The notes below the pieces were generated by a model. The model had not been told where the DNA came from. It did no database searches and saw nothing but the letters and a program-made list of their open reading frames with translations. From positions 672,001 to 736,000 of the forward strand of contig OY970364.1 in assembly GCA_963718565.1 (NCBI GenBank): a stretch of 64,000 nucleotides of DNA. Direction: 5' to 3'. Position numbers and translations under genes: made by a program. Below, piece by piece: positions 40,393 through 41,776 of the stretch. Within the stretch, counting starts at the first letter, position 1, and each line of letters starts with the position of its first letter. This DNA comes from an uncultured Verrucomicrobiae bacterium (GTDB lineage: Bacteria; Chlamydiota; Chlamydiia; Chlamydiales; Rhabdochlamydiaceae).

Positions 40393-40419
40393 ACTGGGCG
40401 CAGTATAGAATCCTCTGTT

Positions 40420-40785
40420 GTACGTCCTCAAAAACCTATGGCAAGCACTGAATGTCATTTGGATCCATGCCAGGCTTTGCATTTATCGATCTCAATCAGG
40501 CATGGATCCAAATGACATTCAGTGCTTGCCACAGGTCTCCGAGGAAGTATGAATTGAGCGGCTTGTAAAGTCAGAACAAAACGCCCAGACCCATTAATAA
40601 AACTTTCGTTATCAAACAGCCTCTCCGGCCACACCTTGACTGGTAGCACGTACATTAGCTTCCTTGAAGACTCTGGCAAAAGTTGAAGACCATTTCGATC
40701 CGTGCCCAATCAAGATCGATAAGTGGTAAGTTTGGCATGGATCAAAATGGTCTTCAACTTTTGCCATGAGTTTTTAAGGACGTAC
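40420..40785 (+). mobile_element. 366-bp non-autonomous IS66-like element with hairpin ends and 8-bp target duplication
   Basis: CCTCTGTT at 40412-40419 and 40786-40793; ends GTACGTCCT..AGGACGTAC; retains the last transposase codons (RYQTASPATP*) also seen at 54693-54725. Confidence 0.9.
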
Positions 40786-41776
40786 CCTCTGTTCCATCCA
40801 GCGTCGAGATAGTGCCGCCAGCAGCGATAAAACCCAGCAGTTTGCGCCTGCCTTGCCCACTGATTGCCTGCTGTGAGGGAACGAACAGTTGATCAATCCC
40901 ATCCCATTGGTCGGCAAGCTGTTCTTCAGGGATCATTCGAAATGCTGTGCGGCTTTCTTTAAGTTTAAAAATGACTCGGTCTAGCTCCTCAATCAAAAAA
41001 GCACTCAAAAATTTATCCTGGGGTAAGTAGAGCCCCACCATTGGGGAGGATGAGAAATTTTTGCCATTCCCAGTACAGCCTAGATATCCTTGCCCATGTT
41101 GACCCTCATTCCAACAAATCCCCGAGAAAGGGCATGGTGCACTTTTTAAAGCGAGCTGGATATGTTCAAAGCGCTCTTTTGAAAAGAGTTGAGCGACTCT
41201 TCCCGGAGAGTGGATCGAAGAGACATCGATCCATGCAAACGGCAGCACAGAATCGGGCAAAAAAGAGAGGAGTCGATGCACATATTCACTCAGCATTTGA
41301 ACGCAGTAGAGCTCATAAGAAGAATCTGTTGCATTCACTCCCAGATCGCTCGACCAATCTAGAAAAGAGGGTTCCCAATCTGCACGAGAAAAGTTTTTCT
41401 CAGAAGGAGGTAACCCTCGATATAAGGTGACTCCAAATGTCTGCTTGTGAAATTCCGGCCAGAGTTTCATGGTGAATTCCTCGACGGCCAGTGAAAAAGA
41501 GAAGAAAGCAGCCGAATTTTCAGGTGTGAATGCAAAAGAAGAAAGCCCTAAATCAATTTCCCAAAAAAGATACTTTCCTGAAGCGGCAATGTGTAAAGCT
41601 CGCTCTTTTTCTTTGGTCCAACCCAGGTCATCGCTCAATGTCGCAGGCAAGCGAAGATAAGCGGTGTTCGACCAATCCATGAGCGAAAAAGAATCCTCTT
41701 GAATCCAAGGGATAAAAGGCAGGCCATCGCAATAGTAACCGTGATGGTCGGCTGTAAAGGGAGAAGAGTTGCTCAT
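40754..41776 (-). CDS. Hypothetical protein; C-terminus replaced by the 366-bp element
   Basis: 340 aa, ATGA-coupled to trmB. The pre-insertion end reconstructs as DGTEDSILRPV*. Confidence 0.75.
   Translation of the reverse strand: MSNSSPFTADHHGYYCDGLPFIPWIQEDSFSLMDWSNTAYLRLPATLSDDLGWTKEKERALHIAASGKYLFWEIDLGLSSFAFTPENSAAFFSFSLAVEEFTMKLWPEFHKQTFGVTLYRGLPPSEKNFSRADWEPSFLDWSSDLGVNATDSSYELYCVQMLSEYVHRLLSFLPDSVLPFAWIDVSSIHSPGRVAQLFSKERFEHIQLALKSAPCPFSGICWNEGQHGQGYLGCTGNGKNFSSSPMVGLYLPQDKFLSAFLIEELDRVIFKLKESRTAFRMIPEEQLADQWDGIDQLFVPSQQAISGQGRRKLLGFIAAGGTISTLDGTEGTSLKTHGKS

What the first reader, a model, noticed from the sequence alone, without database searches (positions are those of the whole stretch)
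40412..40793. IS66-like transposon whose two ends are each a 131-bp covarying hairpin
Seen: an 8-bp duplication (CCTCTGTT) brackets 366 bp. The left unit (40420-40550) has a perfect 33-bp stem (40439-40471/40499-40531) and 27-nt loop. The right unit (40655-40785) has a 33-bp stem with two mismatches (40674-40706/40734-40766) and a 27-nt loop. The stems are homologous but differ (TGGCAAGCACTGAATGTCATTT vs TGGCAAAAGTTGAAGACCATTT) with pairing preserved. Only the outer tips keep GTACGTCCT. The last transposase codons link it to the remnant at 54617-55100. Established: IS66 elements make 8-bp duplications but have short simple terminal repeats. Inference: an end architecture I do not recognise, possibly a cruciform or ssDNA recognition structure, a structured RNA, or captured MITEs serving as ends. 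This is my best candidate for an undescribed system here.
Basis: partly seen in the sequence, partly recalled or inferred. Interest (0 to 1): 0.8.

Follow-up and report, generated by a model that had tools for sequence, protein, structure and literature searches.

The report
IS66-like insertion sequence with hairpin ends
The 366-base feature is a gutted copy of a chlamydial IS66-type jumping gene whose two ends each fold into a long hairpin, an end design shared with base-pair-preserving changes by many relatives and not found described in the papers searched.

Summary
An 8-bp duplication (CCTCTGTT) brackets a 366-bp element whose ends are ~131-bp palindromic units.

It is an internal-deletion copy of a 1,975-bp insertion sequence. 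The one intact copy lies elsewhere in the genome and encodes a single 533-aa IS66-family DDE transposase.

Each end has four parts: a conserved 23-bp terminal repeat, a variable stem, a loop, and an inverted copy ending in a mutated pseudo-tip.

The hairpins are not unique to this genome.
- In 10 end units from 6 elements (transposases 61-81% identical), 19 of 36 stem pairs show compensatory double changes (0 of 500 shuffles reach this).
- A second hairpin class covaries too.
- A 34%-identical IS66-like family in the same genome has the same design.
- No non-chlamydial relative whose ends could be identified shows it.

Long hairpins always come in pairs: 0 of 50 elements are long at one end and bare at the other. 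They are not needed for mobilisation in trans. Twelve 131-bp chimeric MITEs keep only the outer arms, and many relatives lack hairpins.

Function is inferred, not shown. I favour outward-facing terminator/insulator hairpins (~35%). The rivals are tolerated self-homogenising palindromes of MITE origin (~30%) and accessory transposase sites (~25%).

Verdict: a new variant of a known kind.

The parts
40412..40419 (.). Left copy of the 8-bp target-site duplication, CCTCTGTT
   Evidence: (family D6)
40420..40785 (+). 366-bp non-autonomous internal-deletion derivative of the 1,975-bp IS. It equals IS positions 1-189 joined to 1797-1975, with 2 nt of overlap at the junction near 40607/40608.
   Evidence: This is the only full 1-366 match in the genome.
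40420..40550 (+). Left palindromic end unit: outer terminal repeat, 5' arm, 27-nt loop (40472-40498), 3' arm, and a degenerate pseudo-tip (...GAGGAAGTAT)
   Evidence: I2: 51-nt arms, 90% complementary; DNA fold, -48.8 kcal/mol
40420..40442 (+). True left terminal inverted repeat (GTACGTCCTCAAAAACCTATGGC). It is conserved across the family and is the presumed transposase binding and cleavage site.
   Evidence: the first 16 columns differ by only 2.5% between units
40551..40606 (+). Remains of the non-coding region between the left unit and the transposase promoter. The promoter-like TTGATA-17-TAGACT of the full copy lies just beyond the deletion point and is lost.
40607..40639 (+). Last 10 transposase codons plus the TGA stop (...QTASPATP*)
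   Evidence: C-terminus of the 533-aa ORF
40655..40785 (+). Right palindromic end unit: pseudo-tip, 5' arm 40674-40709, loop, 3' arm 40731-40766, and the true right terminal repeat ending ...GAGTTTTTAAGGACGTAC
   Evidence: I3: 36 nt, 92% complementary; fold, -38.9 kcal/mol
40786..40793 (.). Right copy of the 8-bp target-site duplication, CCTCTGTT
54617..55153 (-). Decayed remnant of the same IS: the transposase C-terminal part (with 2 TAG stops) plus a right unit truncated at element position 296
   Evidence: G000 726617-726725, 98% identity to positions 188-296; G000 726696-727153, residues 378-533
39771..39813 (-). Solo 43-bp fragment of the right tip (element positions 324-366)
   Evidence: G000 711771-711813, 97.7% identity

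Best explanation
SHOWN
- The feature is a dead, non-autonomous copy of a 1,975-bp insertion sequence.
- That IS encodes one 533-aa IS66-family DDE transposase. This is the single-ORF layout a paper describes for the ISBst12 group.
- It makes 8-bp target duplications and has multiplied in this chlamydial genome. There is 1 intact copy, many internal-deletion copies, and 12 chimeric 131-bp MITEs.
- Each terminus is a palindromic 'double-repeat' module. A conserved 23-bp terminal repeat (GTACGTCCTYAAAAAC..ATGGC) is followed by a variable stem, a loop, and an inverted copy whose tip and A-tract are mutated (CCTTGAAGA in place of CCTTAAAAA). Only the outer tips are real ends.
- The hairpin is conserved as a structure while its sequence drifts.
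- Long hairpins occur at both ends together or not at all.
- The hairpin is accessory. Elements lacking the inner arms still transposed, presumably in trans.

INFERRED (about 35%)
- The modules act as single-strand hairpins on the strand read outwards, that is the mRNA 3' end on the right.
- On that strand the stem is followed by, or ends in, the T5 run of the terminal repeat.
- They would then work as terminator/insulator hairpins that seal transcription at the element's borders.
- This would make insertions at gene 3' ends tolerable in a compact genome.

The confidence figure (0.8) is for the identity and architecture. The functional step is far less certain.
For: IDENTITY
- Pfam PF03050 scores 55.7 bits against a cut-off of 23.1.
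- The intact copy is at G000:1252311-1254285, with duplication AAAAAATG and an open 543-codon frame.
- 25 of 38 tip pairs have perfect 8-bp duplications.

FAMILY-WIDE TIPS
- The tip motif is present upstream in 47 of 65 full-length related loci and downstream in 53 of 65.

HAIRPINS IN RELATIVES
- 45 of 133 distinct ends score 10 or more, against 2 of 665 shuffles. 37 of 133 score 14 or more, against 0 of 665.

COVARIATION
- Alignment A3: 36 pairs, 95.8% of cells paired, 19 pairs with double changes, 0 of 500 shuffles reaching this. Sliding the partners drops pairing to 35-43%.
- The second class, A4: 11 of 27 pairs with double changes.
- Arms differ by about 30% between units. Within a unit only 0-5 of 36 pairs are non-Watson-Crick.

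PAIRED ENDS
- Of 50 elements with both tips: 10 long/long, 9 short/short, 22 none/none, 9 mixed, and 0 long/none.

ACCESSORY NATURE
- The 12 chimeric MITEs equal left unit 1-95 plus right unit 96-131, and 10 of the 12 have their own duplications.
- The 75%-identical relative in G021 has an 83-nt left end without a hairpin.

TERMINATOR READING
- Minimal forms are an 8-13-bp stem with a 3-nt loop, directly followed by TTTTT on the outward strand.
- Non-Watson-Crick cells are A.C on the inward strand, hence G.T on the outward strand, 146 times against 56.
- 16 of 25 duplication-bearing insertions lie within 60 bp of an ORF 3' end (37% expected). Only 1 of 25 lies near a 5' end (39% expected).
- Precedent: IS200's left-end hairpin is a bidirectional terminator that guards against impinging transcription (PMC4513863, passages read).
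Against: AGAINST THE FUNCTIONAL STEP
- The consensus terminator scan called nothing at either end. That scan only allows loops of 3-8 nt.
- Stems of 33-50 bp with 27-nt loops are far beyond what termination needs.
- In the long forms the T5 run is itself paired.
- Hairpin-less relatives have ORFs ending 19 nt from the tip with no terminator at all.
- Independent terminators would not predict that long hairpins always come in pairs.
- No RNA data could be obtained.

WEAK POINTS IN THE SUPPORTING EVIDENCE
- The G.T strand bias is partly compositional. The inner arm there is A-rich, so any transition gives G, and I estimate roughly 58:42 would be expected anyway. It also rests on a few positions shared by descent.
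- The bias towards gene 3' ends may simply be survivorship.

AGAINST READING COVARIATION AS SELECTION
- Arm-to-arm copying (hairpin mismatch repair or gene conversion) would give the same pattern.
- The stems diverge fast (30% between units). I read the many transversion double changes and the 7 G.U cells of 360 from the pair counts.
- Rows of A3 and A4 were chosen because they had alignable hairpins.
- The shuffle control ignores relatedness.

ON FAMILY MEMBERSHIP
- The NCBIfam IS66 equivalog scores 97.9 bits, below its 180-bit cut-off.
Confidence: 0.8

Rival explanations
1. No selected function.
- The end modules are MITE-type palindromes that became the ends of the IS. One route is a short-ended IS inserting between the two hairpin units of a two-hairpin MITE such as this 366-bp element.
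- They persist because this host tolerates palindromes.
- They stay paired because one arm is repeatedly copied from the other: mismatch repair in extruded hairpins, or gene conversion between arms.
For: - Group-A units are patchily distributed on the transposase tree. The OWN/L061/L141 clade and the distant L081/L083/L085 clade share alignable units, while the clades between them have short ends or none.
- A single nesting event would explain why long hairpins always come in pairs.
- Two-hairpin MITEs with their own duplication exist in another genome (G160; 110 bp, duplication CACCTGAA).
- In L061, homology with the short-type left ends runs from the ORF up to position 17 of the short repeat. 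The 131-nt unit therefore looks like an outside addition.
- Stems evolve fast with many transversion double changes and few G.T intermediates.
- No SbcC or SbcD above the family cut-offs in this genome: best scores 32 and 26.8 bits against cut-offs of 478.5 and 77.65.
- Hairpins were found in chlamydial elements only, including a second, 34%-identical family.
Against: - The supposed remnant of an old terminal repeat inside the left unit is not significant. 36-81 of 500 shuffles reach the OWN score against three of the four short-type repeats and 235 of 500 against the fourth. There is no signal in L061, L081 or L083.
- No old right repeat fits between the stop codon and the right unit.
- No one-ended intermediates were seen.
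- Among near-identical copies in this genome, new stem mutations are mostly uncorrected singletons, so any copying is not fast.
- The inner arm keeps the same G substitutions in the A-tract across hairpin classes. Free homogenisation should erase them.
- The ultimate origin of the first palindromic unit is left unexplained.
Confidence: 0.3
2. The modules work at the DNA level in transposition.
- The inverted pseudo-repeat is a second, non-cleaved transposase binding site, or the unit extrudes as a cruciform or hairpin on the transferred strand.
- It would help assemble or regulate the paired-end complex.
For: - The inner arm is an inverted copy of the terminal repeat itself, including CCTT and a purine run. 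Its tip is mutated, as expected for a site that binds but is not cut.
- Strict left/right concordance, with 0 of 50 elements long at one end and bare at the other, fits a need for matched ends in a synaptic complex.
- In the chimeric MITE the two true tips pair with each other, so every true tip always has a tip-like partner.
- A second IS66-like family with unrelated end sequence has the same layout.
Against: - Intact-looking relatives have no hairpin. Of the 50 elements with both tips, 22 lack one at either end.
- No hairpin was found in the non-chlamydial relatives whose repeats could be identified.
- In the short forms only 8-13 bp are duplicated. I judge that too little for a protein site.
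- The central stem is free to vary. A protein site would not be.
- MITEs without inner arms transposed.
Confidence: 0.25
3. The units encode a small structured RNA (an antisense or guide-like RNA) with a role of its own.
For: - The stem is long, stable and covarying.
- Rfam shows only hairpin-shaped look-alikes (miRNA precursor models), all below their gathering scores.
Against: - No Rfam family reaches its threshold.
- No promoter-like site drives the units, apart from an outward -35-like TTGCCA in the right repeat.
- The loop is the least conserved part, differing by 53% between units.
- A plain perfect hairpin carries little information.
- The structure is equally good on both strands.
Confidence: 0.05

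Closest known systems
IS66 family, single-ORF ISBst12-type elements (e.g. ISDge4)
   Same: - DDE_Tnp_IS66 domain.
- One transposase ORF.
- 8-bp target duplication.
- Ends beginning GTA.

ISDge4 has a single 449-aa transposase, an 8-bp direct repeat and imperfect 14-bp terminal repeats starting GTGAC/GTAAC (PMC12898284, passages read).
   Different: - Here the ends are 51-131-bp palindromic modules (repeat, loop, inverted pseudo-repeat), not short simple repeats.
- The transposase is distant: the NCBIfam IS66 equivalog scores below its cut-off, and the Pfam match covers only the C-terminal half of the model.
- No relative from other phyla whose ends could be identified shows hairpins.
IS200 left-end hairpin (bidirectional rho-independent terminator)
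   Same: - A hairpin a dozen bases inside the element's end (nt 12-34 in IS200, from about nt 13-17 here).
- In IS200 it insulates the element from outside transcription (PMC4513863).
   Different: - IS200 has a Y1 HUH transposase, no terminal inverted repeats and no duplications (recalled).
- Its hairpin sits at one end only.
- Here the transposase is DDE, both ends carry hairpins, the stems reach 50 bp, and termination is untested.
Hairpin-forming bacterial MITEs such as the Correia elements of Neisseria
   Same: - Short non-autonomous elements whose inverted ends can pair into a hairpin.
- They sit at gene borders and can supply gene ends. Here the element supplies the last 11 codons of the ORF at 40754-41776.
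   Different: - In those MITEs the two ends pair with each other. Here each end is a hairpin by itself and the autonomous IS carries them too.
- The features of the Correia elements are recalled, not checked.
Subterminal hairpins of IS200/IS605 and the subterminal inverted repeats of IS1111
   Same: Secondary-structure-forming or inverted sequences just inside the ends.
   Different: - Those families use HUH or DEDD enzymes, single-strand or site-specific mechanisms, and lack 8-bp duplications flanking terminal repeats (PMC6006769 and PMC11187229, abstracts seen in the listing).
- Here the terminal repeats and duplications are the classical DDE hallmarks.

Membership tests
IS66 family | Transposase with the DDE_Tnp_IS66 catalytic domain | tested here: met
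   PF03050: E = 6.8e-15, 55.7 bits against a cut-off of 23.1. The match covers residues 358-482 and only profile positions 147-282 of 284.
IS66 family | Full-length match to NCBI's IS66 transposase equivalog model | tested here: not met
   NF033517 scores 97.9 bits against a cut-off of 180. This is a distant member or sister group.
IS66 family | 8-bp target-site duplication | tested here: met
   25 of 38 tip-to-tip pairs have perfect 8-bp duplications. The window copy has CCTCTGTT.
IS66 family | Terminal inverted repeats beginning GTAA (feature recalled from ISfinder summaries) | tested here: inconclusive
   Tips read GTACGTCC here and GTAAGTCC or GTAACTTC in relatives. They are similar but not identical, and the defining motif is recalled, not checked.
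IS66 proper (three-gene type) | Accessory tnpA and tnpB genes upstream of the transposase gene | tested here: not met
   The 1,975-bp element has one long ORF and no room for others. This is the single-ORF layout described for the ISBst12 group (PMC12898284).
MITE (non-autonomous derivative) | Small size, no transposase, the parent IS's terminal repeats, own target duplication | tested here: met
   366 bp; only the last 10 codons remain; both true tips and the CCTCTGTT duplication are present. The 366-bp form occurs only once, so it may have been deleted in place rather than moved.
IS200/IS605-type hairpin-end elements | HUH (Y1) transposase, no terminal inverted repeats, no target duplication | tested here: not met
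   The transposase is of DDE IS66 type. There are 115-nt inverted ends and 8-bp duplications.
Intrinsic (rho-independent) terminator | G+C-rich stem, short loop, U-run directly after the stem; termination shown in vivo | tested here: inconclusive
   - The short forms fit by eye: an 8-13-bp stem, a 3-nt loop, then TTTTT on the outward strand.
- The long forms have 21-29-nt loops.
- The scan called none at the ends.
- No RNA run was listed.

The most novel reading that the evidence does not exclude
A clade of DDE (IS66-type) transposases in Chlamydiota uses folded ends.
- Each true tip must be presented base-paired to a tip-like partner. In the IS that partner is the pseudo-tip, and in the MITE it is the other tip.
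- The pairing would be a hairpin or cruciform on the transferred strand.
- End recognition would then be partly structural, as in HUH single-strand transposons.
- The palindrome would be re-templated during transposition. That would explain the perfect arms, the fast compensated drift, and the strict pairing of long hairpins at both ends.
Probability: 0.1. Interest if true: 0.85.

Novelty: new variant of a known kind. Interest (0 to 1): 0.6.

Why it matters
IS66 is a large insertion-sequence family, and a 2026 paper calls its transposition mechanisms insufficiently characterised (PMC12898284).

Here a whole branch of the family carries long hairpins at both ends. Evolution has preserved them through many compensated changes, and a second, distant IS66-like family in the same genome carries them too.

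This yields a clean, testable system:
- one intact transposase;
- natural mini-elements with and without the inner arms;
- natural stem variants.

With it one can ask whether a DDE element uses folded ends for transposition, for insulating transcription, or for nothing at all.

It also bears on how compact intracellular genomes tolerate mobile DNA. Insertions cluster at gene 3' ends and can rewrite the last codons of genes. It further bears on how palindromes survive where no SbcCD hairpin nuclease was found.

For annotation, it explains a family of more than 100 repeat hits in this genome.

Tried and rejected
- **Chance:** rejected.
- **RNA evidence:** no RNA holder was listed for the full IS, so expression could not be examined.
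- **Rfam:** only miRNA-precursor look-alikes below their gathering scores. I read these as generic long hairpins.
- **Old terminal repeat surviving inside the left unit (MITE-capture footprint):** an eye-catching 14/18 match in OWN did not beat shuffles (36-81 of 500 against three short-type repeats, 235 of 500 against L146). L061, L081 and L083 gave nothing. The right side was ambiguous.
- **Covariance-model search of 151 genomes of the order:** matches in 5, including the own genome. Only 22 candidates per genome were scored, so this says little about how widespread solo units are.
- **Strand bias of wobble pairs as proof of an RNA structure:** downgraded, because composition and shared descent explain much of it.
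- **Fast arm-to-arm correction:** polymorphisms among copies in this genome are mostly unpaired singletons.
- **L082's right end:** dropped from the alignment because only its tip is related.
- **The 2014 FEMS review of insertion sequences:** not held. ISfinder could not be consulted.
- **IS1272's habit of inserting into hairpins (PMC5678879, abstract read):** considered as an alternative, with the hairpins belonging to the target. Rejected because the hairpins lie inside the duplications and travel with the element.
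Full report
**1. The observation**

- CCTCTGTT occurs at 40412-40419 and 40786-40793 and brackets 366 bp.
- The left 131 bases are a near-palindrome: arms 40421-40471 / 40499-40549, 51 nt, 90% complementary, 27-nt loop. A perfect 33-bp core lies inside.
- The right 131 bases are a second near-palindrome: arms 40674-40709 / 40731-40766, 36 nt, 92% complementary.
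- The two units are inverted copies of one another: 115 nt, 74% complementary.
- DNA folding gives -48.8 and -38.9 kcal/mol for the two units.

**2. What the element is**

The window lies in a 2.28-Mb single-contig genome, which gives 105 matches to the element.
- Left-end matches stop at element position 189 and right-end matches start at 188. The 366-bp object is therefore two ends joined by an internal deletion.
- Scanning the genome for the 16-nt tip gave 115 tips and 38 tip-to-tip pairs.
- 25 of the 38 pairs have perfect 8-bp flanking duplications, each at a different site.
- Sizes run from 131 bp to 3,436 bp.
- The 1,975-bp copy (G000:1252311-1254285, minus strand) is the only one with a long open frame, giving a 533-aa protein from its first ATG.
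- The 3,436-bp copy is the same element interrupted by another insertion sequence. From its translation I read that one as IS3-like, but I did not test this.

The protein's family assignment is as follows.
- It matches Pfam DDE_Tnp_IS66 above the cut-off, though only over the C-terminal half of the model.
- It scores below NCBI's IS66 equivalog cut-off.
- It has hundreds of 60-81%-identical homologues in metagenomes, mostly on 1.7-2.2-kb contigs. One is named an IS66 family transposase of a Rhabdochlamydiaceae bacterium.
- Record titles of related genome contigs are mostly Chlamydiae or Parachlamydiaceae MAGs.
- One ORF, 8-bp duplications and ends starting GTA match the single-ORF ISBst12-type branch of IS66 as described for ISDge4 (PMC12898284, passages read).

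In the window copy, positions 40607-40639 are the last ten codons and the stop. The promoter-like TTGATA-17-TAGACT of the intact copy is lost.

The remnant at about 54617-55153 (minus strand) and a 43-bp right-tip fragment at 39771-39813 belong to the same family.

**3. The solo 131-bp elements**

- Twelve copies of exactly 131 bp exist, and 10 of them have perfect duplications.
- They are not the left or the right unit. They are a chimera of left-unit positions 1-95 and right-unit positions 96-131, crossed over in the shared GGCATGGATC..AAATG stretch.
- They differ from their consensus by 0-3 bases.
- They keep both true tips and the outer arms only, yet sit at many different sites.
- The inner arms and pseudo-tips are therefore not needed for mobilisation, presumably in trans by the intact copy.

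**4. Relatives**

I fetched 80 metagenome loci and 61 genome-contig loci encoding relatives.
- The tip GTA[C/A]GTCCT, followed by YAAAAAGTYATGGC, is conserved. It is found upstream in 47 of 65 and downstream in 53 of 65 full-length loci. Misses include truncated contigs.
- The distance from tip to ORF falls into classes, and folding the ends explains why. Many relatives carry a hairpin just inside each tip, but the stems differ.
- Group A comprises the own element, L061, L141, L081, L083 and L085. It has 33-50-bp stems and loops of about 27 nt, and its members align with each other.
- Group B (L075-L079, L088 and others) has about 25-bp stems of unrelated sequence.
- L116/L117, L107 and L086 differ again.
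- A large set has a minimal hairpin, for example GTCATGGC-AAA-GCCATGAC.
- The more distant clade with GTAAGTCC tips has none.
- With a fixed scoring rule, 45 of 133 distinct ends score 10 or more, against 2 of 665 shuffles. 37 of 133 score 14 or more, against 0 of 665.
- The 75%-identical copy in G021 has an 83-nt left end with no hairpin and a 13-bp hairpin at the right end.

**5. Covariation**

Ten group-A units from six elements (transposases 61-81% identical to the window's) align over 140 columns.
- The consensus stem has 36 pairs. 19 of them show at least one sequence with both sides changed and the pair kept.
- 95.8% of cells are standard pairs, against 78.9% in shuffles (0 of 500 shuffles reach it). 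Sliding the partner by 1-3 columns gives 35-43%.
- Between units the arms differ by about 30%, the loops by 53% and the first 16 bases by 2.5%. Within a unit only 0-5 of 36 pairs are non-Watson-Crick.
- Group B (13 units) gives 27 pairs, 11 of them with double changes.

Caveats:
- Rows were chosen because they had alignable hairpins.
- The shuffle control ignores relatedness.
- Arm-to-arm copying would produce the same pattern as selection.

**6. Further properties**

- *Paired ends.* Among 50 relatives with both tips on one contig, the counts are 10 long/long, 9 short/short, 22 none/none, 9 mixed short/none or short/long, and 0 long/none.
- *A mutated inner arm.* In several hairpin classes the inner copy reads CCTTGAAGA or CCTTGAGAAG where the true repeat reads CCTTAAAAA.
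- *Strand bias.* As a result, non-Watson-Crick cells are A.C on the inward strand, hence G.T on the outward strand, 146 times against 56. I weight this lightly. The inner arm there is A-rich, so transitions give G anyway, and the positions are shared by descent.
- *Patchy distribution.* The transposase tree has 67 proteins: the own copy plus every locus L061-L155 with an open frame of 480 codons or more. Group-A units occur in two well-separated clades, with short-ended clades between them.
- *A second family.* A second IS66-like element in the same genome is 1,701 bp long (G000:1541730-1543430) with duplication CTCAGATC and a 34%-identical transposase. It has 67-bp terminal repeats of unrelated sequence that are each a hairpin with 22-nt arms, 82% complementary.
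- *A distant chlamydial relative.* A 38%-identical element in G002 has 33-34-bp hairpins at both ends.
- *Other phyla.* No 27-29%-identical relative from other phyla in which terminal repeats could be identified (tips GTATCC...) shows a hairpin.
- *No hairpin nuclease found.* No SbcC or SbcD match above the family cut-offs in this genome.
- *Insertion sites.* Of 25 duplication-bearing insertions, 16 lie within 60 bp of the 3' end of an ORF of 100 aa or more in the computed empty site. Only 1 lies near a 5' end. The expectations are 37% and 39% for positions outside long ORFs.
- *The window copy.* It replaces the last seven codons of a 337-aa ORF on the minus strand and lies about 20 bases past the stop of the ORF at 39964-40392.

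**7. How it most likely works**

Shown:
- The outer 23-bp repeats with 8-bp duplications are the working ends of a DDE IS.
- The hairpin modules are conserved structures but are accessory.

Inferred: I see three live readings.

- *Terminator/insulator hairpins (about 35%).* On the strand read outwards the stem runs into the T5 of the terminal repeat. The minimal forms look like ordinary intrinsic terminators. IS200 offers a precedent for an end-proximal terminator hairpin (PMC4513863). The clustering at gene 3' ends fits.
  Against it: the long stems and loops, the absence of any terminator in hairpin-less relatives, the strict left/right pairing, and the lack of RNA data.
- *Tolerated palindromes of MITE origin, kept paired by arm-to-arm copying (about 30%).* This explains the patchy tree, the pairing of ends (a single nesting of an IS into a two-hairpin MITE such as this element, or the 110-bp one in G160), the fast drift and the host restriction.
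  Against it: its predicted footprint was not significant, and the conserved G substitutions in the inner arm argue against free homogenisation.
- *A DNA-level accessory site for the transposase (about 25%).* This fits the pseudo-repeat and the paired ends. It is weakened by the hairpin-less relatives and by the mobile chimeric MITEs.

**8. Comparison and novelty**

- The element is a distant IS66-family member with a single-ORF layout.
- The end design, a repeat-loop-inverted-pseudo-repeat at both ends, was not found in five full-text searches.
- ISfinder and the main IS reviews could not be consulted.
This agrees with what I see, though I could not check that it is the same sequence.
- I rate the finding a new variant of a known kind. 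It is not a new system. It is a well-supported, unusual and experimentally tractable end architecture.

Noticed in passing
G000:C1:1541730-1543430 (locus L053, minus strand): A second IS66-like element lies in the same genome. It is 1,701 bp long with 8-bp duplication CTCAGATC, and its transposase is 34% identical to the first. Its 67-bp terminal repeats, of unrelated sequence, are each a hairpin with 22-nt arms, 82% complementary. Partial copies lie at about 1386485-1387603 and 2251254-2252943.
   Followed up: partly
L203:1501-1611 and 2408-2519 (G160:C1:3499022-3500040): In another chlamydial genome there are two copies of a 110-bp two-hairpin MITE. Each is a 53-bp tip-to-tip mini-palindrome, a T-run, and a hairpin right end. 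The first copy has its own duplication, CACCTGAA. The two copies flank about 800 bp holding two small ORFs, which I did not analyse.
   Followed up: no
window 40754-41776 (minus strand) and 39964-40392 (plus strand): The element sits between two convergent ORFs. It replaces the last seven codons of the 337-aa minus-strand ORF (...LDGTEDSILRPV* becomes ...LDGTEGTSLKTHGKS*).
   Followed up: yes
G000, genome-wide: Insertions of this IS family cluster at ORF 3' ends (16 of 25 within 60 bp) and avoid 5' ends (1 of 25). This could be target preference or survivorship.
   Followed up: partly
G000, genome-wide: No SbcC or SbcD homologue above the NCBIfam cut-offs was found (best scores 32 and 26.8 bits). 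The genome may lack the hairpin nuclease that destabilises palindromes in other bacteria.
   Followed up: partly
G000:C1:297664-301099: This copy of the IS (duplication GAAAATTT) is interrupted by a roughly 1.46-kb insertion with two overlapping ORFs. They look like an IS3-type orfA/orfB pair. That is my reading of the translation and was not tested against a family library.
   Followed up: no
L031:3108-3136 (IS positions 191-219): The promoter-like TTGATA-17-TAGACT ends 8 bases before the transposase ATG. The mRNA may therefore be leaderless or nearly so.
   Followed up: no
G000:C1:1579802-1579858 and 1835389-1835445; L149:2125-2177: There are 53-57-bp tip-to-tip mini-palindromes: two terminal repeats facing each other across 3 nt in L149. 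These are the smallest members of the family. The two in G000 lack duplications.
   Followed up: no
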